Positions 1 through 29,105 of a stretch of DNA of 30,365 nt are shown piece after piece. The position numbers and the translations under genes were made by a program. Source of the stretch: Octopus sinensis (lineage: Eukaryota); NCBI RefSeq assembly GCF_006345805.1, contig NW_021832708.1, positions 1-30,365 of the forward strand. The letters run 5' to 3'. The notes below the pieces were generated by a model that worked only from the letters and a program-made list of their open reading frames with translations, ran no database searches and was not told the DNA's origin. Each line of letters starts with the position of its first letter. Within the stretch, counting starts at the first letter, position 1.

Positions 1-84
1 ACATGTGTACAATCCACTGTCTTCAATTTCAACATCTTTGATGCGGAGTCCCATCTCCTGGATACAAAACCTCTCCCATGCAAT

Positions 85-4454: not shown

Positions 4455-6597
4455 ATGAGTGAAATGTGTGCTATAAACGATATTTTGAGAACTAGTTTTT
4501 CTAAAAGGGACTTCGATGGGAAAAAATTAATTATAATCGCGGGAGACCAACACCGAATTTACCTAATTTGCGAAGCTACAACTAGAAATTCACGAGACAA
4601 TTTCAGGTTAATTCGTATGAAAAGAAGAAATGGTTAACTGGAAGTGTTGCTCTTAATAAATTATTCTGTTGGCCGTGTTTACTTTTTGGCTTAGAAAAAA
4701 ATGTTTGGAATGATAAAGGCTATGATGATTTAAATAATTTACATATGGCTATGCTAAAGCACGAGCGTTCTCAAAGGCATATAAAATGTTTGATAGACCT
4801 TAAAATATTCGGGAATGTTCGCATAGACTTACAATTAGATGCACGTAAAAATCAAAGCATACAACAGCATAATGAGAAAGTTCGACGAAACAGATCCATT
4901 CTGCAACGATTGATCGATGTTGTTATTTTTTTAGGCCTCCAGGAATTATCGTTTCGGGGTCATTTTGAATCTGAAGGCTCTAATAATCGGGGAAATTATA
5001 AAGAACTCGTTTATTTGATCAGTAAGTATGACAAACAAATGGAAAGTCATTTAGATACAGCTTCTATCTTCACTGGTCTGTCGAACAGAATTCAAAATGA
5101 CTTGATCGAAGCAATTCATAAAGTTATGTTGAATGAGATGCAGAAGGAAATTGACCAAGCTAAGTTTGTTTCTATTCTTGTTGATGAGACATCTGATGTC
5201 TCAGCATCTTCACAACTGTCAACAGTTTTACGTTATGTTACAGAAGACTGTGTGACGAAAGAACGATTTATCGGTTTTAGTGATGTTAGTGCAGATCGAT
5301 CTGCAAATGCTTTATCTGAACATGTTTTTAAATGCATTGAGACGTGGGAATGTGGAAACAAATTGATTGCGCAGACATATGATGGTGCCGCTACAATGGC
5401 AGGACAACTAAATGGGTTACAGGCAAAAGTAAGAAATAAATATGAATGTGCGATCTTTATTCATTGTTGTGCCCATATCCTAAATTTAGTTCTTTCACAA
5501 TCATGCTCTGCTATGAAAGAATGCAAGATATTTTTTTCTACAATAAACGGACTCGGTACATTTTTTACGAAATCACCGAAAAGGACTAATGCATTAGATA
5601 ACATTGTTAAAAAAAGATTTCCGAAAGCAACAGCAACTAGATGGAATTACTCCTCACGTCTTATTATTACCACAAAGGAAAATTATAATTTCATAATCAG
5701 CCTTTTTGAACACACATCATTGAAAATCCTGAAGCATGGGATGATATCACCATAAATTCAGCAATTGGATTCTTACACACTTTAAAAGCTCCTGATTTCT
5801 TATTTTTGTTAGAGGTATTCAGTGACATTTTTTCTTTTACTGACGTCTTATTTAACATACTCCAGAGTAAAAGTCATGACATAGTGTATTGTAAACAGCA
5901 AATAGATAAAACTAGAACTGTACTCGAAAACAAACTTGATAATTTTTCAGTCTTTTATGATAGGTTAGGGGAAAAATATGGAGTCGATGCAGGAATCGGA
6001 ATTCAGAGATCCAAGAATATATCTATTGATCCCCAACGACATTATAGAACGCTTTATAACAAAATTATAAGTACAATAGTTGACCAAATAAAAGCACGAT
6101 ATTCATCCTTAGAAGAGTTTAAATTCATGGAACTTTTGAATTTCAACAAAGTTGATGAGTATTGCAAACAATTTCCTGTGGACTCTTTAGATTCTTTAAG
6201 AACAACTTATGGCAGATTTTTTGATGTAATACGATTACAAAGTGAGCTCAATGTGATGTTTTCAATGAAAGATTTTAAAAAACCAAGTGTAAGTCATTTA
6301 ATGAGTTACATTAACAGCACTGATCTTGTTGAAGCTATGCCAGAACTCTTCAATCTGTGCAAGTTGATTTTGACAATTCCGTCTACCACTGCTTCTGTAG
6401 AGCGATCCTTTTCTGCATTAAGCAGAATTAAAACATACCAAAGAAATGCGACAGGAGAAAGAAGACTGTCTGGGTTAGCACTAATGTCAATTGAAAAAGA
6501 TTTATTACAAGAATTGATGAAAAGAGAAGATTTCTATGAAAATGTGATAGATATATTTGCCCAGAAAGATCGAAGAATTGAATTAATTTATAAATGA
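4455..6597 (+). pseudogene. hAT transposase (ZMYM1/DUF4371-like), frameshifted
   Basis: TTF-type Zn-finger remnant (WLTGS..LFCWPCLLF..KHERSQRH), FRGH..GNYKEL, SNRIQNDLI, catalytic VDETSD and YDGA, HCCAH, TRW, and the hAT dimerisation motif SVERSFSALSRIKTY..RLSGLALMSIE. Indels near 4540-4590 and 5715. Confidence 0.9.
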
Positions 6598-12346: not shown

Positions 12347-12565
12347 AAAAAAGGAAATGAAGAAAATGCTGACAAATAATTGAAGTAATTTAAGTAATTT
12401 AATTAGGTGAAAGTTCTTTTTACCGGTTGCGCATTTGTTATGCTTATCAAAATATTTTGATAAGCATAACAAATGCGCAACCGGTAAAAAGAACTTTCAC
12501 CTAATTAAATTACTTAAATACTTCAATTATTTGTCAGCATTTTCTTCATTTCCTTTTTTATATAT
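12341..12565. repeat. Near-perfect spacerless palindrome with 112-113 bp arms
   Basis: Centre ATCAAAAT|ATTTTGAT at 12453/12454; the arms differ by one 1-nt indel. Confidence 0.95.
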
Positions 12566-12627
12566 CGCCACTCGTGTTCGACATCTCCTTTTTTTATATA
12601 CATATATATATATACATATATATATAG

Positions 12628-12660
<33 letters not shown>

Positions 12661-12857
12661 CATATATTATATAAAAGGGCTTAGTAAAATAAATTACTTT
12701 GCCACATACTGAACTCATTAGAAATAGCAGCTAAAAAAATTTTTTCAGCTATTTCTAATACTTAAAGAAAAATCTCTCTCAGATAGTGTTTGCTCAAACC
12801 AACTCACGAAGGTATGGGGTAAAAGCATTAAAAAAAAAAACAAGTGCAAAGGTTATT

Positions 12858-12909
12858 TGAGAACGTACGTTTCTAGATTGGTCAAATCGACATTTCTTTC
12901 ATCAGCTCA
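12858..12909 (-). ncRNA. Type I hammerhead ribozyme motif, family A copy 1
   Basis: Minus strand reads UGAG-CUGAUGA-A-AGA.aau.GUC.gauuu.GAC.caa.UCU-A-GAA-ACGUACGU-U-CUCA. Stem I UGAG/CUCA continues after an internal loop as AAGG/CCUU. Predicted cut after GUU (12862/12861). Confidence 0.75.
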
Positions 12910-13414
12910 GAACTCCTTGATTCGGATTTGGGAACACCGAAAGTGGGAGCATACCCTTTTGGCTTCTTATCATCTCCTGAGGTCCGCTCGAACTGACAGT
13001 GCTCACAATTCAAAATATGCAAGCCAAGAATTTCTGCTCTCCCCTTTCCACCAGCGTGGGTTAAAATCGGCAAACACTGTTTTATCGGTAAAAACCGAAG
13101 CATTAAACAGAGAGAAATGAATAATAATTTCAACAATTGAGGGTAAATTTAATTAATTATTAATCAATTTCACCAAGTATTCAGTATGTAAAGGGACCTT
13201 TTAAGGCGAATTCAAAATATTACATTATATAAAAGGGCTTAGTAAAATAAATTAATTTGCCACATACTGAACTCATTAGAAATAGCACCTAAAAAAATTT
13301 TTTCAGCTATTTCTAATACTTAAAGAAAATCTCTCTCAGATAGTGTTTGCTCAAACCAACTCACGAAGGTATGGGGTAAAAGCATTAAAAAAAAAAACAA
13401 GTGCAAAGGTTATT

Positions 13415-13466
13415 TGAGAACGTACGTTTCTAGATTGGTCAAATCGACATTTCTTTCATCAGCTCA
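13415..13466 (-). ncRNA. Type I hammerhead ribozyme motif, family A copy 2
   Basis: Identical to copy 1. Confidence 0.75.
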
Positions 13467-13972
13467 GAACTCCTTGATTCGGATTTGGGAACACCGAAAG
13501 TGGGAGCATACCCTTTTGGCTTCTTATCATCTCCTGAGGTCCGCTCGAACTGACAGTGCTCACAAATTCAAAATATGCAAGCCAAGAATTTCTGCTCTCC
13601 CCTTTCCACCAGCGTGGGTTAAAATCGGCAAACACTGTTTTATCGGTAAAAACCGAAGCATTAAACAGAGAGAAATGAATAATAATTTCAACAATTGAGG
13701 GTAAATTTAATTAATTATTAATCAATTTCACCAAGTATTCAGTATGTAAAGGGACCTTTTAAGGCGAATTCAAAATATTACATTATATAAAAGGGCTTAG
13801 TAAAATAAATTAATTTGCCACATACTGAACTCATTAGAAATAGCACCTAAAAAAATTTTTTCAGCTATTTCTAATACTTAAAGAAAATCTCTCTCAGATA
13901 GTGTTTGCTCAAACCAACTCACGAAGGTATAGGGGTAAAAGCATTAAAAAAATCACAAGTGCAATGGTTATT

Positions 13973-14024
13973 TGAGAACGTACGTTTCTAGATTAGTCAA
14001 ATCGACATTTCTTTCGTCAGCTCA
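13973..14024 (-). ncRNA. Type I hammerhead ribozyme motif, family A copy 3 (CUGACGA core)
   Basis: Same fold; the core differs only at the freely variable N7 position. Confidence 0.75.
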
Positions 14025-14052
14025 GAACTCCTTGATTCGGATTTGGGAACAC

Positions 14053-14116
14053 ATATATATATATATATATATACATATTATATATATACATATATATATA
14101 TAATATACATATATAC

Positions 14117-14147
<31 letters not shown>

Positions 14148-14168
14148 CAAATATATATACATATATAC

Positions 14169-14203
<35 letters not shown>

Positions 14204-14230
14204 CGTATATATATATATATATATCTTTAC

Positions 14231-14285
<55 letters not shown>

Positions 14286-14298
14286 CATATATATATAC

Positions 14299-14333
<35 letters not shown>

Positions 14334-14350
14334 CATATATATATACATAT
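14053..14350. repeat. (TA)n/(TACA)n microsatellite between the two arrays
   Basis: Read directly. Confidence 0.95.
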
Positions 14351-14472
14351 AACGATTTAGGAGTGACCCCAACAGGTCACTCGTCCACCAGAAAGAGCAG
14401 CCATAACTCACACCGCCAAGTATTAGTAATTCAGAAATTAGGTGAAAATTTAAAAACATTTACCCTAATTCA

Positions 14473-14574
14473 TCTTTTAGACGTTGCAACGTTTCTGTGT
14501 CATTAATGATTAAATTAGCTTAATTAAATTAAATTAAGCCAATCTACCATAGGTTACACTTCATCAGTAAAAGA
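14473..14574 (-). ncRNA. Type I hammerhead ribozyme motif, family B
   Basis: Minus strand reads UCUUUUA-CUGAUGA-A-GUGU..long stem II..ACAC-A-GAA-ACGUUGCAACGU-C-UAAAAGA; 7-bp stem I, GUC cleavage triplet. Confidence 0.8.
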
Positions 14575-14945
14575 CCTGGGAGAGACAAATATACACGAGG
14601 CGTCTGTATCGATGCCTACGGGATATCTGACTTAAAATTTTCAAGACTGACGTATTCGCGCCAAACTTATCAACAGTAAATATAAACTGCCGATTCAATC
14701 TCAGAATTATTCAGAAAATTATCAATTAGTCAGTTTAGGGTAGCAAAAAAATTCAATAGAAATTTATCGCAACCAGCGGCCTGGTGAAAAAGAGAAAATA
14801 GTCATCGACTAATATATAAATATAACGATTTAGGAGTGACCCCAACAGGTCACTCGTCCACCAGAAAGAGCAGCCATAACTCACACCGCCAAGTATTAGT
14901 AATTCAGAAATTAGGTGAAAATTTAAAAACATTTACCCTAATTCA

Positions 14946-15047
14946 TCTTTTAGACGTTGCAACGTTTCTGTGTCATTAATGATTAAATTAGCTTAATTAA
15001 ATTAAATTAAGCCAATCTACCATAGGTTACACTTCATCAGTAAAAGA
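14946..15047 (-). ncRNA. Type I hammerhead ribozyme motif, family B
   Basis: Identical motif in unit 2. Confidence 0.8.
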
Positions 15048-15419
15048 CCTGGGAGAGACAAATATACACGAGGCGTCTGTATCGATGCCTACGGGATATC
15101 TGACTTAAAATTTTCAAGACTGACGTATTCGCGCCAAACTTATCAACAGTAAATATAAACTGCCGATTCAATCTCAGAATTATTCAGAAAATTATCAATT
15201 AGTCAATTTAGGGTAGCAAAAAAATTCAATAGAAATTTATCGCAACCAGCGGCCTGGTGAAAAAGAGAAAATAGTCATCGACTAAATATATAAATATAAC
15301 GATTTAGGAGTGACCCCAACAGGTCACTCGTCCACCAGAAAGAGCAGCCATAACTCACACCGCCAAGTATTAGTAATTCAGAAATTAGGTGAAAATTTAA
15401 AAACATTTACCCTAATTCA

Positions 15420-15520
15420 TCTTTTAGACGTTGCAACGTTTCTGTGTCATTAATGATTAAATTAGCTTAATTAATTAAATTAAGCCAATCTACCATAGGT
15501 TACACTTCATCAGTAAAAGA
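15420..15520 (-). ncRNA. Type I hammerhead ribozyme motif, family B
   Basis: Same motif with a 1-nt deletion at the tip of stem II. Confidence 0.8.
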
Positions 15521-15890
15521 CCTGGGAGAGACAAATATACACGAGGCGTCTGTATCGATGCCTACGGGATATCTGACTTAAAATTTTCAAGACTGACGTA
15601 TTCGCGCCAAACTTATCAACAGTAAATATAAACTGCCGATTCAATCTCAGAATTATTCAGAAAATTATCAATTAGTCAATTTAGGGTAGCAAAAAAATTC
15701 AATAGAAATTTATCGCAACCAGCGGCTGGTGAAAAAGAGAAAATAGTCATCGACTAAATATATAAATATAACGATTTAGGAGTGACCCCAACAGGTCACT
15801 CGTCCACCAGAAAGAGCAGCCATAACTCACACCGCCAAGTATTAGTAATTCAGAAATTAGGTGAAAATTTAAAAACATTTACCCTAATTC

Positions 15891-15991
15891 ATTTTAGACG
15901 TTGCAACGTTTCTGTGTCATTAATGATTAAATTAGCTTAATTAAATTAAATTAAGCCAATCTACCATAGGTTACACTTCATCAGTAAAAGA
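15891..15991 (-). ncRNA. Type I hammerhead ribozyme motif, family B (shortened stem I)
   Basis: Core intact; 2-nt deletion in the 3' strand of stem I. Confidence 0.7.
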
Positions 15992-16643
15992 CCTGGGAGA
16001 GACAAATATACACGAGGCGTCTGTATCGATGCCTACGGGATATCTGACTTAAAATTTTCAAGACTGACGTATTCGCGCCAAACTTATCAACAGTAAATAT
16101 AAACTGCCGATTCAATCTCAGAATTATTCAGAAAATTATCAATTAGTCAATTTAGGGTAGCAAAAAAATTCAATAGAAATTTATCGCAACCAGCGGCCTG
16201 GTGAAAAAGAGAAAATAGTCATCGACTAAATATATAAATATAACGATTTAGGAGTGACCCCAGGTCACTCGTCCACCAGAAAGAGCAGCCATAACTCACA
16301 CCGCCAAGTATTAGTAATTCAGAAATTAGGTGAAAATTTAAAAACATTTACCCTAGGTGGACGAGTGACCTGTTGGGGTCACTCCTAAATCGTTATATTT
16401 ATATATTTAGTCGATGACTATTTTCTCTTTTTCACCAGGCCGCTGGTTGCGATAAATTTCTATTGAATTTTTTTGCTACCCTAAATTGACTAATTGATAA
16501 TTTTCTGAATAATTCTGAGATTGAATCGGCAGTTTATATTTACTGTTGATAAGTTTGGCGCGAATACGTCAGTCTTGAAAATTTTAAGTCAGATATCCCT
16601 AGGCATCGATACAGACGCCTCGTGTATATTTGTCTCTCCCAGG

Positions 16644-16745
16644 TCTTTTACTGATGAAGTGTAACCTATGGTAGATTGGCTTAATTTAATTTAATTAAGC
16701 TAATTTAATCATTAATGACACAGAAACGTTGCAACGTCTAAAAGA
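16644..16745 (+). ncRNA. Type I hammerhead ribozyme motif, family B (inverted block)
   Basis: TCTTTTA 16644-16650, CTGATGA 16651-16657, GAAAC 16723-16727, GTC 16736-16738, TAAAAGA 16739-16745. Confidence 0.8.
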
Positions 16746-17113
16746 TGAATTAGGGTAAATGTTTTTAAATTTTCACCTAATTTCTGATTACTAATACTTG
16801 GCGGTGTGAGTTATGGCTGCTCTTTCTGGTGGACGAGTGACCTGTTGGGGTCACTCCTAAATCGTTATATTATATATTTAGTCGATGACTATTTTCTCTT
16901 TTTCACCAGGCTGCTGGTTGCGATAAATTTCTATTGAATTTTTTTGCTACCCTAAATTGACTAATTGATAATTTTCTGAATAATTCTGAGATTGAATCGG
17001 CAGTTTATATTTACTGTTGATAAGTTTGGCGCGAATACGTCAGTCTTGAAATTTTAAGTCAGATATCCCGTAGGCATCGATACAGACGCCTCGTGTATAT
17101 TGTCTCTCCCAGG

Positions 17114-17214
17114 TCTTTTACTGATGAAGTGTAACCTATGGTAGATTGGCTTAATTTAATTAATTAAGCTAATTTAATCATTAATGACACAGAAACGTTG
17201 CAACGTCTAAAAGA
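17114..17214 (+). ncRNA. Type I hammerhead ribozyme motif, family B (inverted block)
   Basis: CTGATGA 17121-17127, GTC 17205-17207, stems intact. Confidence 0.8.
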
Positions 17215-17585
17215 TGAATTAGGGTAAATGTTTTTAAATTTTCACCTAATTTCTGAATTACTAATACTTGGCGGTGTGAGTTATGGCTGCTCTTTCTGGT
17301 GGACGAGTGACCTGTTGGGGTCACTCCTAAATCGTTATATTTATATATTTAGTCGATGACTATTTTCTCTTTTTCACACGGCCGCTGGTGCGATAAATTT
17401 CTATTGAATTTTTTTGCTACCCTAAATTGACTAATTGATAATTTTCTGAATAATTCTGAGATTGAATCGGCAGTTTATATTTACTGTTGATAAGTTTGGC
17501 GCGAATACGTCAGTCTTGAAAATTTTAAGTCAGATATCCCGTAGGCATCGATACAGACGCCTCGTGTATATTTGTCTCTCCCAGG

Positions 17586-17686
17586 TCTTTTACTGATGAA
17601 GTGTAACCTATGGTAGATTGGCTTAATTTAATTTAATTAAGCTAATTTAATCATTAATGACACAAAACGTTGCAACGTCTAAAAGA
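17586..17686 (+). ncRNA. Hammerhead motif family B, defective (G12 missing)
   Basis: ACACAAAACGTT instead of ACACAGAAACGTT; mutation or sequencing error. Confidence 0.6.
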
Positions 17687-17905
17687 TGATTAGGGTAAAT
17701 GTTTTTAAATTTTCACCTAATTTCTGAATTACTAATACTTGGCGGTGTGAGTTATGGCTGCTCTTTCTGGTGGACGAGTGACCTGTTGGGGTCACTCCTA
17801 AATCGTTATATTTATATATTTAGTCGATGACTATTTTCTCTTTTTACACCAGGCCGCTGGTTGATAAATTTCTATTGAATTTTTTTGCTACCCTAAATTG
17901 ACTAA

Positions 17906-17936
17906 CATATATATATACATATATATCTATATATAC

Positions 17937-17975
<39 letters not shown>

Positions 17976-18427
17976 ATTCATATATTATAAATATACATAT
18001 ATATTATACATATTATATATATATACATATATATATATATTACATATATATACATATACATATACATATAAACATATACATATATACATATACATATATA
18101 TATACATATACATATATACATATACATATATACATATACATATATATATACATATACATATATATATATACACATACATATATATATATACATATACATA
18201 TATATATATATACATATACATATATACATATACATATACATATATACATATACATATACATATATACATATACATATACATATATACATATACATATATA
18301 TATATACATATACATATATATATATACATATACATATATACATATATACATATACATATATCATATACATATATACATATACATATATATATATACATAT
18401 ACATATATACATATACATATATATATA

Positions 18428-18460
<33 letters not shown>

Positions 18461-18645
18461 ATACATATACATATACATATATACATATACATATACATAT
18501 ATACATATACATATATACATATACATATATACATATATACATATACATATATACATATATATATACGTATACATATATACATATATATATACATATATAT
18601 ACATATATACATATATATATATATGCATATATATATATATTATAC

Positions 18646-18678
<33 letters not shown>

Positions 18679-18713
18679 CATATATATATATATTACATAT
18701 AATATATATATAC

Positions 18714-18760
<47 letters not shown>

Positions 18761-19083
18761 CATATATTATATATACATATATATATACATATACATATAT
18801 ATATATACATATACATATATATATATACATATACATATATTATATACATATACATATAGATATATACATATATATATATACATATACATATATACATATA
18901 CATATATATATATATACACATATACATATATACATATACATATATATATATACACATATATATATATATACATATACATATATATATATACACATATATA
19001 TATACACATATATATATATATACACATATATATATATATATACACATATATATATATATACACATATATATATATATATACAC

Positions 19084-19114
<31 letters not shown>

Positions 19115-19209
19115 CACATATATATATATACATACACATATATACATATACATATACACATATATATATACATATACATATATACATATACATATACATA
19201 TATACATAT
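17906..19209. repeat. (TA)n/(TACATA)n compound microsatellite
   Basis: Read directly. Confidence 0.95.
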
Positions 19210-19299
19210 AAAAAATTTAAAAAAAAAAAAAATATTACTTATTTTGTTATCATTAGTGTTCTTTCAAACAGAAAATAATAATATATCTATGTGTATGTA

Positions 19300-19704: not shown

Positions 19705-20380
19705 TTCTCCCCTCTCTCTCTCTCTCTGTCTGTCTCTTCAGTTTCTCTCACTCACGCTTCTCCTTGTCTCTTCATAGCTCTCATTCTATCTTACTCCCCT
19801 CTTTCAAATATATATTCTCTCTATATTTCTTCCTTCTCTCCCTCTATCTCTTCAGTTCTCTCCCGCTTCTCTTGTCTCTCCATTACTCTCTTCTATCTCT
19901 TCAGTTTCTCTCCCGCTTCTCCTTGTCTCTCCATTTCTCTCTTCTAACTTACTCTCCTCTCTCGGATACATATAAGGACATAGACGCTCTCTCTCTCTTC
20001 CTTCAGCTCTCGGTCTCTCCCCTTCCTCTTCTCTCTTACTCTCGGCTCCCAATTTCTCCTTAAGTACATAGACGCTCCCTTTCTCTTCTAACTTACTCTC
20101 CTCTCTCGGATACATATAAGGACATAGACGCTTTCTCTCTCTTCCTTCAGCTCTCAGTCTCTCCTCTTCCTCTTCTCTCTTACTCTCGGCTCCCAATTTC
20201 TCCTTAAGTACATAGACGCTCCCTTTCTCTACTTTCTCCCTACCCCCTATTGCACTATTAGATTAATATAAATTAATATAATATAATATAATATAATTCC
20301 TCCCTTCCTCACAATCACAATCTCTTCCTCTCTCCTCCCTTCTCCCTTTTTCCCTCACAGCTTCTCTCTCTCTCCCCGCT
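19705..20380 (+). repeat. CT-rich low-complexity region with a 144-bp tandem duplication; possibly the 5' UTR of the downstream LINE
   Basis: CTTCTAACTTACTCTCCTCTCTCGGATAC at 19941 and 20085. Confidence 0.8.
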
Positions 20381-20388
20381 ACAACGGA

Positions 20389-21321
20389 ATGGACAACATG
20401 CAAAAATTAGAGGTGAATGCAAACACTGGCGTCAACAAAAGCCAGCGTAACTGGACGAAAGTAGAGCTGGAAGTTTTCATCAGAGGATGGAGCTCGGCCG
20501 ACAGATCGCAACCAACTAAAAACATAGCGGCGACCCTGAAAAGCCATGGCTTTATGAGGACGTTGGCGCAAGTAGAGAGGAAGAAAAGAGAAGTCGAAAG
20601 GGCCTACACTCTCATTGCACCACACATGGCTTTGCTAAGCCAAGTCCTCAAGGTGGACAAAGACAAAGAGAGAGAGATGGAAACAGGAAACACCAACCAC
20701 AGAGTGTCAAAAAATGACACGCCCACTGCCACAGTTGAAGAAGGCAAGCAGGGCAAACAACAGATAGGCGGCGATGGGGAAACAGAAAATAACCACCCGG
20801 ATGAAAAGACCTATGCAGAAAGGAACCAGTGGACAACCGTCCAACGGAGGAAGAAAAAACAGAGAGGAACTGGGGACAAGAAAACCCAGATAACATGCAA
20901 ATTCTTCCGGAATGGAACCTGCTGGCATGGAGAAACAGGGGAAGGATGCAGGTTCGCTCATCCCAGGCCCTATGGAAATTGCATCAAACCCACTCGACCA
21001 AAATGCCTTAACCAAAACCAGAACAAATACAAGCTGCCCCAGAAATATGCAGACATAGTGCGTAATGCCCCAACAAGAAGGCGCACATTTGCAGAGGAAA
21101 TGCAGACGGCGGCAGCAGAACAAAGAAATTTTGTGGAAATGGCAGAGAAAATTGTGGGACAACTGGCCTGGATACATCGTCTTCAGAGCCAGGGGCACTC
21201 ACAACAGCACTCAAGACCACCACAATCAAGGGACCCAGGGTGGCCACCGCTGACGCCGGCCCAGGTGCCACACCGTCAGCCTTTATTGACACCCCGGGTG
21301 TCTCACCAGTGCTTCTGCTGA
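20389..21321 (+). CDS. LINE ORF1 protein: N-terminal Myb/SANT (trihelix)-like domain plus CCCH zinc finger
   Basis: Open 310-aa ORF; RNWTKVELEVFIRGW..IAATLKSHGFMRTLAQVERK; CKFFRNGTCWHGETGEGCRFAH (C-x7-C-x8-C-x3-H); homologous ORF in element B. Confidence 0.8.
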   Translation: MDNMQKLEVNANTGVNKSQRNWTKVELEVFIRGWSSADRSQPTKNIAATLKSHGFMRTLAQVERKKREVERAYTLIAPHMALLSQVLKVDKDKEREMETGNTNHRVSKNDTPTATVEEGKQGKQQIGGDGETENNHPDEKTYAERNQWTTVQRRKKKQRGTGDKKTQITCKFFRNGTCWHGETGEGCRFAHPRPYGNCIKPTRPKCLNQNQNKYKLPQKYADIVRNAPTRRRTFAEEMQTAAAEQRNFVEMAEKIVGQLAWIHRLQSQGHSQQHSRPPQSRDPGWPPLTPAQVPHRQPLLTPRVSHQCFC

Positions 21322-24251
21322 ATGTCAGAGGTCTGGTGAAACCCACTAATATGGGTAAAATTCCTTACCTTAGGGACTTGAGCACAAGCAACCATGCAAT
21401 ATGCATAGCGCTGACTGAAACGCACCTGTCAAGCAGTATAGCAGATGCAGAAATACACATACCGAAGTATACTGTTTTCGGGTCGGACAGGAAGGAAAGA
21501 ACTCATGGTGGGGTTGCCCTGTACGTCCGTGAAGATGTCACACCCATAGTACTGTTGACACACTCAACTCAGTCTGTGACACACTGATAGTACACATGAA
21601 ACAACCGAAAATAGTAATATGTGTCACATATCGGCCACCAGACACCCCTAGTCATGAAGGAGTGTTTGAAGATAGCCTCAGAAGAATAGAAGAAGTCCTG
21701 GACAAACTGGACCAGGGTAACACCATTCTACTGCTGGGAGATTTTAACCTTCCGAAAGTCAAATGGCCAGATGGCCATCTCCTCCCTGGAATGACATCAC
21801 TTGAACAGAGACAGAGAGTCCTTGTTGGCTCTCACACGCAAGTTTTTCATGGAGCAAGCAGTGCTTTGGCCAACAAGAGGTGAGAATGTCTTGGACCTCT
21901 GTTTCACAAGCAACCCGATGCTCATCCACAACATAATGGTAACACCAACAATTCTCTCAGACCACAACTTAGTAGAGGTAATGATATATGGTATGAGAGA
22001 GTTATTGAGACGCAGCCATTAGAAAATACCACAGGCCTATCCAGTCTAAACTCCATAAGGCAAACTGGAAGAAGATCAACGAAGAGATCCGAAAACATGA
22101 CTGGAGTGACTTCATCACCACACAAGACACCAACACACATTTCCAACATTTCATGACAACAATACAGAACATATGCCATAAGTTTGTCCCGGAGAAAAAA
22201 GCCAGCGGGCATAGGAACGTTATTCCCAGAGACAGGAAAATACTTATGAGGCGAAGAGCTAAGCTCTCGAAGCAACTGAATGCACGGCAGAGAAACAATG
22301 AGGGACTCCACCTGAAACTTTTTGAAACGGAAACTGCACTCAAACTTTCCTATGAGAAGGAGAGGGCAGAGAGAGAAGCCAGGGCCATAGAGAATATTAA
22401 AACAAACCCTAAAGCCTTCTTTAATTTGCGAAAGAAACCACCTCAGTACACTGCAAGATTGGCCCACTCTTTGATAAAAAGGGCTCTCTAACTGAGGACC
22501 CCCAAGGGATAAGTGAAATACTAAAGGAACAGTATAAAAGTGTGTTCACATCCCCTCTGGGGCACATGCAAATCACAAACCCAGAAGTTTTCTTTGGCCA
22601 CAACACTCCAAAACCAAACAACAACCATCGACCACATAGACATAACAGAGAGGGATGTAATATCTGCCATAGAAGAAATGAGAATAAACTCAGCTGCTGG
22701 ACCAGATGGATCCCAGCAGTCCTCCTAAAGACATGCAGGCATGCCCTAGCGGGACCACTGAAGAGCTCTTCAGTGGTTCCTTGGCTAACGGTAACTGCCC
22801 AGGGCGCTAAAAGAAGGCACCATATGCCCTATCCACAAAGGAGGGAGTAGAGCAGAGGCCAAAAACTACAGGCCAGTCTCCCTGACGTCACACATAAGTA
22901 AGGTCATGGAACGAATCATCAGAAAAAAACTGATCACGTTCCTCGAAGAAACTAACCGTCTCACTGACACACAGCATGGCTTTCGCCCAGGAAGAAGCTG
23001 CCTTACGCAGCTGTTACAACACTACGACTGGGTACTGAAACAACTACTGGATCGCTCACAGGTAGATGTGGTATATCTCGACTTTGCGAAGGCCTTTGAC
23101 AAAGTCGACCACGGAGTGATATGTCACAAATTACTCAGACTCGGCATAACAGGAAAAGTAGGTGAGTGGATACATGACTTCCTGAAGGACAGAAGCCAGA
23201 TGGTTGCAGCCAATGGAGCCCTCTCGGGAAAGACACCAATAGCAAGCGGGGTGCCACAGGGCACAGTCTTGGGACCCTTGCTGTTTTTGGTGGCGCTCTC
23301 TGACATGCCCTTGGTAGCACAAACAACATCCCTCACTAGCTATGCTGATGACACAAAGGTAGCACAGGCAATCAAAAACCCAGCTGATGCTGACCTTTTA
23401 CAACAAGATCTGGATGCCATATACAAATGGGCTGAAGACAACAACATGCAATTTAATGCTGGTAAATTTCAAGCCTTACAATATCAGCTGTAAACACATA
23501 TACATTACAACACAACTATACTGGTCCAGGAGGGATCGAAATCCCAGTATCGAAATCAATACGGGACCTGGGGATAGACATGAGTGACGATGCATCTTTT
23601 TCTTCACACATCGCGAAGGTGGCGACAATGTGCAGACGACTCACTGACTGGATCCTGAGGACATTCCGGACAAGAGACTGCGAGACCATGTTGACACTAT
23701 GGAGGACATTTGTCCTAAGCCGCCTGGACTACTGCTCCCAACTGTGGTCACCGCATAGTGTCAAACCAACCACAGAGCTTGAGACAATCCAAAGACATTT
23801 CACCAAGAGGATTTCCACCATGAAAGAAAAGAACTATTGGGAGAGGCTTAGGGAACTCAATTTGTACTCCTTGGAACGAAGACGAGAGAGATATGCAGTG
23901 ATATACATATGGAAAATCCTGGAGGGACTAGCACCAAATTTTGGAATTGAGAGCTGTTCCAATCCCCGTACAGGACGTCACTGTGTGGTGCCAAAGGTCC
24001 CGTCTTCCACATCCAGGGTAAGGAGCAGATACTGTAATAGCCTGGGGTTCAGGGGCCCTCAGCTGTTCAACAAACTGCCAAGAAAACTAAGAGATCTACA
24101 TGATGCGGATGTGGACATTTTCAAAAAACATCTAGACAAGCTGCTTTCCGGGATCCCAGATGAACCCACTGCAAGGTACGAAGGTAACCTAAGGGCAGCA
24201 GCTACAAACTCTCTCTTAGATCAGTGGCCAGCCACGGCAAACTGGACTTAG
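21240..24251 (+). pseudogene. LINE ORF2 (APE endonuclease plus reverse transcriptase), frameshifted
   Basis: LLNVRGL, LTETHL, GGVALY, YRPP, GDFNLP, LDLCFT, SDHNLV; NYRPVSLTS, QHGFRPGRSC, YLDFAKAFDKVDH, GVPQGTVLGPLLF, YADDTK; CR1-type C-terminus LDYCSQLWSP..YWERL..LYSLERRR. Confidence 0.92.
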
Positions 24252-25262: not shown

Positions 25263-28240
25263 TCATGGAGGCTTTCTAGCAACTGCTATTTGGTGCATGA
25301 GAGAGTTCGATGCAGCTGCCCTCATCTGCCCCTCCTGCCGTGAAGTTGGTTCATCTGGGACACCTGACAGAAAGATCCAGCTTCATTTTAAAGACTCCTT
25401 ATCCACCCCATGCAGGTCTCTCAGGTTCTTCGGGGGATATTGAAGAGCTGTGGGCCTCGGAAGCCCAGGCTATCACAGTATCTTGTCCTACATCTTGATG
25501 GCAGTTTGGAGTCCTAGGCACCACGCAGTGGCGCCCAGTTCTGGCATTTGCGTAACTCTCGATGCCAAAGTTCAGGACTTCCCTCCAGGATCTTCCAGAT
25601 GTATATTATGGCATATCTTTCCCGCCTACCTCCAGGGATATAATTTTAATCTCTTGAGTCTTTCCGTAGCTTACATTCTGCATAGAGGCTATCTTCTTTG
25701 TGTAGCTTCGTTGGATCGCCTCAAGTTCTGTGATCAACTTGACACTGGATGGTGACCATAGCTGAGAGCAATAGTCAAAGTGGCTTAGGACAAGTGTCTT
25801 CCAGAGGACCATCATGGTTTCTTGTTCTCTTGTTCTAAAGGTTCTAAGAATCCATCCAGCCAGCCGTCTACATTTCATTGTCAGTTTAGCAACATGTACA
25901 TGAAAGGTCGCGTCCACTCATGTGAATACCCAGGTCACGCACTGATTGTGCCTCTGGGATTGCAATCCCTCCGGGTCCAGTGTATTCATTGGGTATTGCA
26001 TTCAGCTTTGCATGCTGATAGTATAAAGCTTGAAACTTTCCAGCATTGAACTGCATGCTATTCTTTTCAGCCCACTTGTATATTCGTCGTCCAGCTCACA
26101 TTGCAGGTGTTTAGTGTCCTCAGGGTTCTGTATTGCCTGTGAAACTTTTGTATCATCTGCATAACTTGTGATCGTGGCTCTCTGCGTGGCTGAGGGCATG
26201 TCTGAGAGGGCCATTATGAACAGTAGTGGTCCCAGAACAGTGCCCTGCGGAACACCGCTCACTATTTGTGTGTAATGGAGGTGGCCCCATTGGCTACTAC
26301 CACCCTGACTTCTATCCTTCAGAAAGTCATGAAGCCATTCTCCCAGTTTTCCAACTATGTTGAGATCCGCAGTTTGTGACATATCATTCCATGATCGACT
26401 TTATCAAAGGCCTTTGCAAAGTCGAGATATATCATCTTCCACATTTGAGTGGTTGAGCAGCCGTTTCAGCACCCAGTCATAGTGTTGTAGGAGCTGAGTT
26501 AAACAGCTTCTCCCTGGTCGGAAACCATGTTGGGTGTCGGGAAGCAAGTCATTCTCTTCAAGGAAGGTGATCAGCTTCCTTCTGACTATTCGTTCCATGA
26601 CCTTGCTGATGTGTGAGGTCAGAGAGATAGGTCTATAGTTCTTGGCTTCCGCTCTTGCTACCTCCTTTATGAATGGGGCATATTTAGCTTCCTTCAGTTT
26701 TCCTGGAAGTTTGCCAGCTGCAAGGAAGCTCTGAAAGAGGAACTGCAGTGGTCTTGCTAGGACTCTCTTACATGCTTTTAGGAGGATTGCCGGGAATCCA
26801 TCGGGGCCAGTAGCTGAGTCTGTTTTCATTTCATCTATAGCCTTGGTTACATCGTCGTCTCCTTTATATCGATGTAATCTATCGTCGCCGCCTCTGATTT
26901 TATATCTGCAGTGGTAAAAAAGTTAGTTGGATTGGTGATTTGGAGATGCCCAAGGGGTGGAGTGAAAACACTCTTGAATTGCTCATTCAGTATTTCACTT
27001 ACCCTCATTGGTTTTCCTGTAAGTGTGCCATCCTTTTCGAGGAGTGGCCCTATTCTACAGTGCACTGTAGCTGTTTCTTTGGCATACCTGTAGAAAGCTC
27101 TGGGGTTAGATTTTATGTTTTCTATAGCCCAGGCTTCTTTGTCTGCTCTTTCTTTTTCATGGGAGAGTTGCAGACATTTTTCGATTTCCAACAGTTTTAT
27201 TTTTAGGCGGGACTTTTCACTGCTTTCAATCTGTTTGTTTAGGCGATTTGAAAATTTCGTACGCCGTCTCATTAAAATTTTCCTCTCTCTGGGGATTTTG
27301 TTCTTGTGTACAGTGGCCTTTCTCTCTGGGACACATTTGTAGCATATGGCTTGCATTACAGACATGAATTGTTGAAGTTTCACGTCGATGTCTGGCGAGG
27401 AGAGACATTTAGGCCAGTTTTGTTTGAGGATCTCTTTCTCAATTTGTTTCCAGTTTGCCTTATGGTAGTTCAAGCTGGAAAGATTTTGAGGGTTTCTTGT
27501 AGGCTGCATGTCCGTGCTCTCTTTTGCCGTACATGGTCAGCTCTATCATGTTGTGATCCGAGAGTAGTGTCGGTGTCACTTTCACATTATGGATGAGATC
27601 CATGTCATTTGTGAAGCAGAGATCCAGTGTGTTACCTGCCCTGGTTGGTTGGAGTATTACCTGCTCCATGTACAGGGTGTTGAGGGTTCAGGAGGACCTC
27701 GCCTGTCCTCGTTCACATCTTGTCATTCCTGGGAGAGAAAGGCCCTCGGGCCATCTGACATTGGGCAGATTGAAGTCTCCCATAACAAGCACACCTATGT
27801 GTTGTTCTAATGTGGTTAGAACTTCTATTTTTATAAGGCAGTCTTCAACTTGCCCACATGGCTTGGGCATCTGGAGGGCGATATGTAGCACACACAACTA
27901 CATCAAGTTGCCTAATATGTACAATTAGTGTGTCACACACCGAGTTTGAGTATGACAAGAGGACCTGGGGTGTGAGGTCCTCACGGATGTACATAGCAAC
28001 ACCTCCATGACTCCTTTCTTTCCTGTCGTTCCGTAGTACAGCATACTGTGGTATGTGTAACTCCGCATCTGCTATGTCCGGTTTCAGGTGCGTTTCTGTA
28101 AGTGCTATGCATAAGGCTTGATTGCATGCAACAAAGTCTCTCAGGAACGGGATCTTTGTCCTGTTACTGAGTGTTTGCAGTCCTCTGATGTTCAGTAGGA
28201 GTATCGAGGTGAGGTGTACGTTGTTGCCGGCGGTGTCCAT
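25263..28240 (-). pseudogene. LINE ORF2 (APE endonuclease plus reverse transcriptase), frameshifted
   Basis: Fragments LLLNIRGL/LTETHL/YRPP, GDFNLP, LDLCFT/SDHN, NYRPISLTS/QHGFRPGRSC, GVPQGTVLGP/YADDTK, FDYCSQLWSP. Confidence 0.92.
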
Positions 28241-29105
28241 CCTGTGTCTGTTTGCTGTGGTGGTCTGTTATATAGTGGGTAGTCCCACCTGTGGGCTTGG
28301 GTTTGATGAAGCCAGGTCAGCTGCTGTACAATCTTTTGTGCCATGCACAAAAAAGATTGTTGCTCAGCAGCTGCTCTTTCGACAACATCATGTTGGCTGT
28401 TTGTGCGCGCACAACATCTGCGTACCTCCGCTTTGGGGCAGGTGGTGCGTGGTCCATCCCTTTTCTTTGTGTTGATGGTTTGTCCATCTGCCTCGTGTCT
28501 CTGTGGCAGGGTCCCCGATGTGCAAAGCGGCAGCCTGCACCTTCCTTTCCATGCCAGCAGGAACCTCTCAGGTAGAACATACCCACCCTGTGCGCTGTTT
28601 GGTTCCATCCTTTGCGGTTCCACTTCTATTTCTGGTTGTTTCATTCATCTTTGGTCCTGCTTGAGCTTTTTCTTTTCCTTTAGCTCTTCCAGTCCTTCTT
28701 TTAGTACTTCTTCTCCCTCTACTCTACCTCTTCACCGGTTCTCCGTCTCCATGGCCCTGGCTGCCGGTTGGAGAACTTGCACCTGGGTTCACTTCCGGGC
28801 AGGTTTCTCATTCAAAACCTCCTCCCGGGCGTCCACCAGGTGGGGGTGACTTCTTTCATCGTCTCCATTCTTGCCATCTTTGCTCCGCTCGTTCTCAAAG
28901 ATGGCATCAAGTGCGCCAATGTGTGACCGTACAAGCGCATATAAGCGCACGAATTCCTGTCTCTTTCGCTCCATCTGAGCCGCTGTCCTCTTGTAGCCTC
29001 TGCTCTTCAGCGCAGCCGCAATCACCTCCTAGGCTATCTCCGCCGGCGCACCCCCATGCTCGTACGAATAATCCAGCTCTCGTCACGTCTCCATGCTCTG
29101 GACAT
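28192..29105 (-). pseudogene. LINE ORF1 (Myb/SANT-like plus CCCH finger), frameshifted
   Basis: IAAALKSRGYKRTAAQMERKRQE, FYLRGSCWHGKEGAGCRFAH and AAAEQQSFLCMAQKIVQQLTWLH align with element A ORF1. Confidence 0.8.

What the first reader, a model, noticed from the sequence alone, without database searches (positions are those of the whole stretch)
14351..17905. Tandem array B is a hammerhead-ribozyme repeat (retrozyme-like self-cleaving RNA element)
Seen: each full 473-bp non-coding unit contains UCUUUUA-CUGAUGA-[stem II]-GAAACGUUGCAACGUC-UAAAAGA, a complete type I hammerhead layout with 7-bp stem I and GUC site; 7 copies. Established: tandem hammerhead repeats (Schistosoma Sm-alpha, newt satellite 2, cricket pDo500, metazoan non-LTR retrozymes, Penelope pseudo-LTRs) are transcribed as multimers and self-cleave to monomers, some of which circularise. 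Inference: this is a non-autonomous retroelement yielding a 473-nt, possibly circular, RNA. I do not recognise this family, but cannot confirm it is undescribed.
Basis: partly seen in the sequence, partly recalled or inferred. Interest (0 to 1): 0.9.

Follow-up and report, generated by a model that had tools for sequence, protein, structure and literature searches.

The report
Two-armed hammerhead retrozyme with Penelope ends
This is one of a few hundred scattered insertions of a 473-base non-coding repeat that carries a conserved hammerhead-ribozyme fold (cutting untested) and lies as two back-to-back arms ending at two different fixed points, which likely records a Penelope-type enzyme copying one, probably circular, RNA into both sides of a DNA break.

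Summary
The seven hammerhead motifs are real, but the array is two head-to-head arms (4 motifs on −, 3 on +) inside a (TA)n tract, not one tandem run. It is a young dispersed family (735 hammerhead matches). Rfam misses the motif, and the base of stem II is A·A. A 71%-identical sister family keeps the core, varies only N7 and H17, and shows compensatory changes in all three stems, so the fold is under selection; cleavage is untested.

New here: arms end at two fixed sites 95 nt apart (X, Y), the Penelope 'tail' signature. 65 of 67 complete two-armed insertions have one X and one Y end, none X/X or Y/Y (33 of 35 in sets chosen blind to ends). All 67 centres compared differ. Variants are fixed across both arms 230 times and in one arm once. 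Best reading: a non-autonomous Penelope-like retrozyme, primed from both target strands on one RNA and copied repeatedly, probably round a circle. No autonomous partner and no RNA circle was found. Known kind, informative new variant.

The parts
14349..16356 (-). Left arm, about 4.2 units; RNA-sense 3' end faces outward and stops at site X, 5' end truncated at unit position +13
16357..17905 (+). Right arm, about 3.3 units; starts at unit position +91, 3' end stops at site Y
16356..16357 (.). Central 5'-to-5' junction of the two arms (blunt here; at other loci 0-6 nt overlap or short inserts)
16644..16745 (+). Type I hammerhead, full layout: stem I 7 bp, core from 16651, A.A then 4-bp stem II with ~55-nt insert, palindromic stem III, predicted cut after 16738
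17114..17214 (+). Hammerhead, full layout, predicted cut after 17207
17586..17686 (+). Hammerhead copy lacking G12 in this assembly
14473..14574 (-). Hammerhead, full layout, C17 at 14480
14946..15047 (-). Hammerhead, full layout, C17 at 14953
15420..15520 (-). Hammerhead, full layout, C17 at 15427
15890..15991 (-). Hammerhead copy with 2 nt missing from the 3' strand of stem I, C17 at 15897
14349..14382 (-). Site X (unit position about +131): 9-bp hairpin followed by the end motif that runs into the TA tract; inferred first reverse-transcription start
17810..17905 (+). The ~95-nt 'tail' between X and Y, with a conserved small hairpin (17847-17861) and the Y end motif (17890-17905, unit position about +226); inferred second start
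14053..14351 (.). Left half of the TA-rich microsatellite target
17906..19210 (.). Right half of the TA-rich microsatellite target

Best explanation
The array is one insertion of a dispersed 473-bp non-coding repeat with a conserved hammerhead fold, laid down as two back-to-back arms in a TA microsatellite, most likely by a Penelope-like reverse transcriptase-endonuclease acting in trans that likely started copying one, probably circular, RNA at two different fixed sites from the two cut DNA strands. Steps: (1) an array is transcribed through several units (inferred); (2) the hammerhead cuts once per unit and the monomer is ligated into a circle (inferred from known retrozymes; about 0.7 for cutting, 0.65 for a circular template); (3) the PLE protein nicks both strands of (TA)n (target shown; enzyme inferred, about 0.9); (4) one nick primes at X (+131) and the other at Y (+226), two similar short motifs on the RNA (fixed ends and their one-and-one pairing shown; priming inferred); (5) each copy runs on through the hammerhead site for up to about 9 units (continuity shown); (6) the two cDNA 3' ends are joined with 0-6 nt microhomology or a short insert (junctions shown; repair route inferred).
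For: Ends: of 60 two-armed insertions in 79 loci, 57 are X/Y, 0 X/X, 0 Y/Y, 2 have one odd end and 1 is cut by the stretch end (L120 is one insertion duplicated). 9 of 9 more are X/Y among 18 loci picked by the hammerhead alone. In sets chosen blind to ends, 33 of 35 are X/Y. (TA)n lies on both sides of 78 of 81 insertions. 67 of 67 centres differ, and either arm can be the longer. A variant is fixed in both arms in 230 variant-by-locus cases and in one arm only in 1; 14 variants private to one locus are fixed across both arms, e.g. 12/12, 10/10 and 9/9 pieces. Unit distance is 0.34% within an arm, 0.42% between arms and 2.08% between loci, with 32 haplotypes in 40 loci. No 5' end falls at the cleavage site among the 36 within 45 nt of it. 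The same two-end pattern is seen in sister families and the array A family (17 of 19), and in an intact RT+GIY-YIG family N1. PMC11167929 shows in vitro that a PLE protein cuts and extends both strands, starts internally at two RNA sites that define the tail, and is predicted to be a dimer. Hammerhead: 98.3% of cells paired, 7 pairs with double changes, 0/500 shuffles; stem II covaries when read from the core.
Against: No autonomous element sharing sequence with the unit was found in 72 PLE-bearing stretches or near 20 loci with the shared tail motif. No listed holder is on record as RNA, and contigs of three guessed-RNA runs cover it only at depth 0-74, except uncovered bins in one run. The 10.1-11.1 pair is a mismatch, loop 2 is not canonical, and in the circular fold the active form costs 3.8 kcal/mol, with stem I probability about 0.05. 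Only 1 of 9 Xenopus retrozyme dimers cleaved in vitro. Eleven variant-by-locus cases are partial, some present in both arms in no common period, which a pure monomer circle does not predict. 15 of 67 centres are within 25 nt of symmetric (7.2 expected, p 0.005). The rule has exceptions in other families: one Y/Y in array A's family and one in N1. In vitro the two strands showed no difference in start site.
Confidence: 0.68

Rival explanations
1. Same PLE-driven double priming at X and Y, but the template is an uncleaved linear multimer read from a donor array that was already uniform; no circle is needed and the hammerhead plays no part in copying.
For: Hammerhead mutants did not affect insertion in vitro, and unprocessed RNA was the main substrate (PMC11167929). 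Partial variants shared by both arms fit mixed multimers. No RNA circle was observed.
Against: Daughter arms cannot be longer than donor arms, and a new variant sits in one unit, so long arrays fixed for private variants need a one-unit bottleneck followed by re-amplification. DNA-level re-amplification would leave variants fixed in one arm only, seen 1 time against 230. 32 haplotypes in 40 loci mean that this bottleneck is passed often.
Confidence: 0.2
2. One cDNA is primed, then folds back on itself to make the inverted arm, and the tail arises when the endonuclease resolves the intermediate (self-priming as proposed in PMC3846280; tail by resolution as suggested in PMC8557442).
For: Proposed for PLE palindromes. 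Near-symmetric centres are in excess: 8 of 67 within 10 nt against 3.0 expected.
Against: 52 of 67 centres are more than 25 nt from symmetric. Either arm may be many times longer than the other (179 vs 3776 nt; 2317 vs 475 nt). One-armed copies end at Y as well as X (5 of 22). The two sites match two in vitro start sites in a related PLE. Hairpins in the unit would also favour near-symmetric joins of two cDNA ends (inference).
Confidence: 0.08
3. A satellite or foldback-type DNA element amplified at DNA level, or palindromes made by long-read assembly error; the hammerhead is a relic.
For: Tandem units, indel noise between copies and long inverted arms.
Against: The two outer ends differ in sequence, so they are not terminal inverted repeats, and a mirrored read would give identical ends and flanks. 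Every centre is new. One-armed copies have a fixed 3' end and a variable 5' end. The fold covaries.
Confidence: 0.04

Closest known systems
Metazoan non-LTR retrozymes (coral, mussel, axolotl; PMC7229834) and their vertebrate survey (bioRxiv 10.64898/2026.07.22.740005)
   Same: Non-coding, low-GC tandem unit with one type I hammerhead per unit, dispersed as short multimers, co-existing with PLEs; a rolling-circle route is hypothesised there.
   Different: The unit (473 bp) is above the 150-450 bp of PMC7229834, though inside the 51-972 bp of the preprint. The hammerhead has an A.A base of stem II and a ~55-nt insert instead of a short loop 2. Head-to-head arms and two fixed ends are not described for retrozymes in the parts I read. 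There the PLE link rests on co-occurrence and pLTR similarity; here it rests on the insertion footprint. No circle has been shown here.
EN+ Penelope-like elements (Penelope/Poseidon, Neptune): pLTR, inverted 5'-truncated copy and 30-40-bp tail (PMC8557442, PMC3846280, PMC11167929)
   Same: Inverted 5'-truncated copy, tail often at one end only, AT-rich or microsatellite target, hammerhead about 100 nt upstream of the start sites.
   Different: No ORF. The tail is ~95 nt. Two-armed insertions are the majority (60 of 82), where for autonomous N1 I found a paired other end for only 10 of the 100 listed X ends. Each arm holds several near-identical units. No shared sequence with an autonomous family was found.
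PLE-type atypical hammerheads (PMC4209133)
   Same: Long helix II, extra purine after A9, palindromic helix III, pairs of motifs close together on opposite strands.
   Different: Those keep G10.1-C11.1 and have a minimal helix III. This one has a 4-bp helix III that could fold as a monomer, and an A.A (sister family A-U or A.C) at the base of helix II.
Non-autonomous Chlamys PLEs such as MRC1 (PMC8557442 passage)
   Same: Non-coding PLE derivative forming multicopy head-to-tail insertions.
   Different: Naiad/Chlamys mostly lack canonical hammerheads, and those derivatives share 3' sequence with their partner.

Membership tests
Type I hammerhead ribozyme | Conserved core C3 U4 G5 A6 N7 G8 A9 / G12 A13 A14 A15.1 / U16.1 H17 | tested here: met
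   6 of 7 window copies. Kept in 12 of 12 aligned variants of this and the sister family, with N7 = U, C or A and H17 = C or A.
Type I hammerhead ribozyme | Helices I, II, III around the core, supported by covariation | tested here: met
   98.3% of cells paired, 7 pairs changed on both sides, 0/500 shuffles, slid controls 25-50% (the structure counted covers helix I, helix III and the insert hairpin, and rows are related, so this is not a probability). Helix II paired at pairs 2-4 in 12 of 12 and at pair 5 in 11 of 12, with changed letters. A double change in helix III in 7 of 7 pieces, one event.
Type I hammerhead ribozyme | R10.1-Y11.1 pair closing helix II | tested here: not met
   A.A in this family; A-U (5 of 7) or A.C (2 of 7) in the sister family; A.A also in two other families of this genome.
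Type I hammerhead ribozyme | Loop 1-loop 2 tertiary contact of canonical motifs; match to an Rfam hammerhead model | tested here: not met
   Loop 2 is a ~55-nt branched insert; no Rfam hammerhead hit. A non-canonical contact cannot be excluded.
Type I hammerhead ribozyme | Mg2+-dependent self-cleavage after H17 | not testable with these tools
   Only folding energies: the active fold costs 0.7 kcal/mol locally and 3.8 in the circle.
Non-LTR retrozyme | Short non-coding tandem unit, GC <50%, one type I hammerhead per unit, at least two consecutive units | tested here: met
   473 bp, GC 35%, longest ORF 59 aa; 4 + 3 consecutive motifs.
Non-LTR retrozyme | Dispersed copies across the genome | tested here: met
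   735 hammerhead-half matches, 0 control; 850 first-look candidates, 39 scored.
Non-LTR retrozyme | Expressed as linear and circular monomer RNA | tested here: inconclusive
   No listed holder is on record as RNA; only contigs could be laid, which cannot show ends, strand or circles.
Non-LTR retrozyme | Target-site duplication; absence of LTR, PBS and PPT | not tested
   A duplication cannot be read inside (TA)n; PBS and PPT were not searched for.
Non-autonomous Penelope-like element | Two alternative fixed 3' ends (tail) and variable 5' truncation | tested here: met
   X and Y ends ~95 nt apart; 259 and 149 pattern matches, 0 control, some X matches internal.
Non-autonomous Penelope-like element | Inverted 5'-truncated copy; AT-rich or microsatellite target | tested here: met
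   60 of 82 insertions two-armed and head-to-head; (TA)n on both sides in 78 of 81.
Non-autonomous Penelope-like element | Sequence shared with the pLTR of an autonomous PLE | tested here: inconclusive
   None in 72 PLE-bearing stretches, but only 150 of 5029 GIY-YIG candidates were scored and several clades were not sampled.
Foldback-type DNA transposon or satellite | Identical inverted termini and an inherited centre, or one large array locus | tested here: not met
   Termini differ, 67 of 67 centres differ, arrays are short and dispersed.

The most novel reading that the evidence does not exclude
These arrays are a genomic record of how Penelope-like elements integrate: a protein dimer holds one circular ribozyme-made RNA by two similar motifs, primes one cDNA from each cut strand (one at X, one at Y), rolls round the circle several times in both directions from the break, and the two cDNA ends are then joined. 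This would explain the PLE tail, the inverted copy and partial tandems in one model, and would be direct evidence that retrozyme circles are the transposition template, using a hammerhead variant with an open base of helix II.
Probability: 0.5. Interest if true: 0.82.

Novelty: new variant of a known kind. Interest (0 to 1): 0.62.

Why it matters
Two questions are open in the papers read: what mobilises animal retrozymes and from what template (PMC7229834 and the 2026 preprint leave both as hypotheses), and how PLE insertions acquire a tail and an inverted copy (PMC11167929 finds two start sites but leaves the later steps open). This family links the two with countable genomic evidence: a near-strict one-X-one-Y rule and clonal arms. 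It also supplies a 473-nt RNA with mapped start sites for a direct test (circular versus linear template, X or Y motif removed). It further shows a genome rich in hammerhead families, this one among them missed by Rfam, with a relaxed 10.1-11.1 pair.

Tried and rejected
Rfam scans found no hammerhead. An apparent pile-up of 5' ends at the cleavage site (10 of 141, p 0.0009) was an artefact of where my ruler began; with a dimer ruler none lies at +1, so I dropped the idea of cleaved linear monomers as templates. The single X/X cluster in the pattern lists (1 of 37) resolved to X/Y when fetched (L111). Partner search: a GIY-YIG family search, 40 follow-up stretches, a pattern for a short-stem II relative (2 hits, both deleted copies of this family), 20 loci with the shared tail motif and a Poseidon-type RT search gave no element sharing sequence with the unit; a hammerhead near one N1 copy (L093) lies beyond N1's usual end. 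RNA: no RNA holder listed; the 'goes back 469' joint in contigs cannot tell a circle from a tandem. Partial variants showed no single period, so I do not claim multimeric circles. Within-family core conservation alone is not significant (p about 0.09 on a rough table). Earlier scan findings: nothing by sequence or place. One held-out locus (L231) was left out of the centre-symmetry count because its inner end was not resolved.
Full report
OBSERVATION. The window is a whole 30,365-bp contig of a 2.72-Gb animal genome. My guess that the animal is a cephalopod mollusc is recalled from genome size and repeat content and comes from no call. TRF finds two arrays, 14339-16355 (period 473, 4.3 copies) and 16356-17905 (period 471, 3.3 copies), between TA-rich tracts. 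They are the same unit in opposite orientation. Seven hammerhead motifs are present, four on - and three on +, with C17 at 14480, 14953, 15427, 15897, 16738, 17207 and 17679. The unit is 35% GC, and its longest ATG ORF is 59 aa. Rfam reports no hammerhead in the window (122 matches at E<=1, none a ribozyme) or in 16400-17000 (7 matches at E<=10). Below, +1 is the first base after C17.

IS THE HAMMERHEAD REAL? It is atypical: A faces A at the base of helix II, then 4 bp and a ~55-nt insert with a long hairpin. A pattern from the tail region found 4812 matches (1 in the control) and led to a sister family (unit 482-492 bp, 71% identical). Across 12 aligned variants (5 of this family, 7 of the sister, chosen by me as distinct) the core is invariant except N7 (U, C, A) and H17 (C, A), the two positions free in known hammerheads. 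For helix I, helix III and the insert hairpin, 98.3% of 300 cells pair, 7 of 25 pairs change on both sides, 0 of 500 shuffles reach this, and slid controls pair 25-50% (rows are related). Helix II, read from the core, pairs with different letters in the two families, and its first pair is A.A, A-U or A.C. Within the family, variants fixed in a locus fall 0 times in 22 core and helix II base columns and 50 times in 371 other columns (p about 0.09). The two fixed stem I variants make G-U pairs, and a double change in helix III co-occurs in 7 of 7 pieces from 4 loci. A type I descriptor found more than 20 other hammerhead families in 1.05 Mb of fetched loci and 0 hits in the reversed control; two of them also have A.A. 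The active fold costs 0.7 kcal/mol in the isolated motif and 3.8 in the circular monomer; the linear monomer folds better than all 100 shuffles (z -4.1). Cleavage is untested, and only 1 of 9 Xenopus retrozyme dimers cleaved in vitro.

THE FAMILY. A DNA search gave 850 candidates, of which 39 were scored, with full units 94-100% identical on many chromosomes; a pattern for the hammerhead's 3' half gave 735 matches and 0 controls. I fetched all 38 other scored loci, 40 loci picked from lists of end patterns (not blind) and 18 loci picked by the hammerhead and absent from the end lists. RNA-sense 3' ends face outward into (TA)n (both sides in 78 of 81 insertions) and stop at one of two places: X near +131 and Y near +226 (Y ends run on to +250 in a few cases, which I counted as Y). 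Of 60 two-armed insertions in the first 79 loci, 57 are X/Y, none X/X or Y/Y, two have one odd end and one is cut off; 22 one-armed insertions end at X (17) or Y (5) (L120 and L054 each hold one insertion twice). The 18 held-out loci give 9 of 9 X/Y. That is 65 of 67 complete independent two-armed insertions, and 33 of 35 in the sets blind to ends (24 of 26 plus 9 of 9). Pairing the pattern lists for contigs C1-C5 gave 36 X/Y of 37 head-to-head clusters; the exception resolved to X/Y. All 67 centres compared differ, with 0-6 nt overlap or short, sometimes element-derived, inserts. Either arm can be the longer, up to 4352 nt. X and Y are similar short motifs 10-12 nt after a CCT, and their surroundings (a hairpin before X, a small hairpin in the tail, the Y motif) are conserved in sister families G and H and the 71% sister, whose X end has little or no TA overlap with the target. 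Those families show the same pairing: 5 of 5 and 13 readable X/Y cases among 20 loci (selected for the tail motif, so X/X could not appear).

ONE TEMPLATE PER INSERTION. In 431 pieces from 78 loci, a variant is fixed in both arms in 230 variant-by-locus cases and in one arm only in 1. Fourteen variants private to one locus are fixed across both arms, including 12/12, 10/10 and 9/9 pieces; 11 cases are partial. Full units differ by 0.34% within an arm, 0.42% between arms and 2.08% between loci, and 40 loci carry 32 fixed haplotypes. No arm's 5' end falls at the cleavage site once the ruler artefact is removed (36 ends within 45 nt, none at +1), so the template was continuous across it. A new mutation arises in one unit, and to fill a 12-unit, two-armed insertion it must pass through a single unit and be re-amplified. 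DNA-level amplification would leave arm-restricted variants, which are nearly absent. Repeated copying of a circular monomer is the simplest fit (inference). The partial variants, which show no common period, are not explained; they may be mixed multimers, repeated misreading of one base, or assembly noise.

MECHANISM. PMC11167929 (parts 1-2 of 4 read) shows that a Poseidon PLE protein cleaves and extends both strands of AT-rich DNA, starts internally at two RNA sites without homology to the target, that the stretch between them is the genomic tail, that the protein is predicted to be a dimer, and that hammerhead cleavage was not needed in vitro; it saw no strand difference in start site. PMC8557442 (passages) and PMC3846280 (passages) describe the inverted 5'-truncated copy and a 30-40-bp tail often at one end, and propose resolution by the endonuclease or self-priming. 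The present data favour double priming: fold-back predicts symmetric centres and a dependent second arm, but 52 of 67 centres are more than 25 nt from symmetric and arm lengths are free. The excess of near-symmetric centres (15 of 67 against 7.2) counts for fold-back in a minority, or for joining at hairpins. The one-X-one-Y rule is what two active sites sharing one RNA would give (inference). The genome has intact RT+GIY-YIG ORFs (781 and 775 aa; the label Neptune-like is mine, from the linker motif, recalled). Family N1 also inserts in (TA)n with a hammerhead upstream of X and a second end 57 nt further on. In the listed range it gives 10 X/Y pairs, no X/X and one Y/Y. It shares no detectable sequence with the unit, so the partner is not identified.

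EXPRESSION. No listed holder is on record as RNA. Contigs of three guessed-RNA runs and one unlabelled run cover the unit, and two contigs' loose ends show further helix III variants, but contigs cannot show strand, ends or circles.

COMPARISON AND NOVELTY. It works like a non-LTR retrozyme (PMC7229834: abstract, passages, sections 13 and 17) and meets the sequence-level criteria; the RNA criteria are untested. It carries PLE insertion marks, which fits the 2026 preprint 10.64898/2026.07.22.740005 (parts 1-3 of 5) that infers a PLE origin from co-occurrence and pLTR similarity in 35 genomes, none a mollusc. PMC4209133 (parts 1-2 of 4) already notes motifs on opposite strands and hypothesises circular templates for PLEs. 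I found no description of this family, of a counted one-and-one end rule, or of clonal arms in eight searches. Passages of PMC6962438 list 235 Rfam hammerheads in giant squid without analysis, and passages of 10.1101/2022.05.23.493040 do not treat priming. The library lacks most subscription papers, Repbase and Dfam were not available, and I read no supplements (those of the preprints are closed); these may list this family or similar architectures.

VERDICT. A real feature of a known kind; a new variant whose insertion pattern bears on two open mechanistic questions. Interest 0.62.

Noticed in passing
window 12663-14052 (- strand): Array A: a second hammerhead repeat family (557-558-bp unit, cores at 12905 and 13462, A.A at the base of helix II, GUU triplet), one-armed here and ending at its X site. 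1875 first-look candidates. Of 19 fetched loci, 17 are X/Y, 1 Y/Y-like and 1 cut off, with a ~100-nt tail and a Y motif like that of array B.
   Followed up: partly
window 12348-12594: A 247-bp near-perfect palindrome in (TA)n with ~35 extra bases on one arm: a very short two-armed PLE-type insertion. Each arm holds a hammerhead-like motif with the U3-A8 core and an A13-to-C change (read). A related end sequence flanks L124.
   Followed up: no
L093:2732-5074 and L092-L106 (family N1): Young autonomous PLE with an intact 781-aa RT+GIY-YIG ORF, a 479-aa upstream ORF of no clear Pfam family, and a U3-A8 hammerhead about 60 nt before its X end; 457 X-end matches.
   Followed up: partly
L087:2072 (+); L123:5941 and L169:5873 (+): Hammerhead-like motifs with A3-U8 and G3-C8 cores; with C3-G8 and U3-A8, all four Watson-Crick versions of the 3-8 pair appear in this genome.
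   Followed up: no
L171-L200, L201-L220: The sister families (482-492-bp and ~535-bp units) are several times more abundant than array B's family: 4812 matches to their shared tail motif.
   Followed up: partly
L033, L046, L047, L055, L057, L121, L122: Variants carried by some but not all units and present in both arms, without a common period; unexplained.
   Followed up: partly
window 1-3027, 4586-6597, 20287-24251, 25444-28644: Other mobile-element remnants by ORF look alone: an RTE-like LINE, a hAT-like transposase, and two CR1/L2-like LINEs facing each other. Labels recalled, not tested.
   Followed up: no
L134 and L243: Apparently one-armed insertions carry a Y arm of only about 15-20 bases at the other end, so the share of two-armed events is underestimated.
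   Followed up: partly
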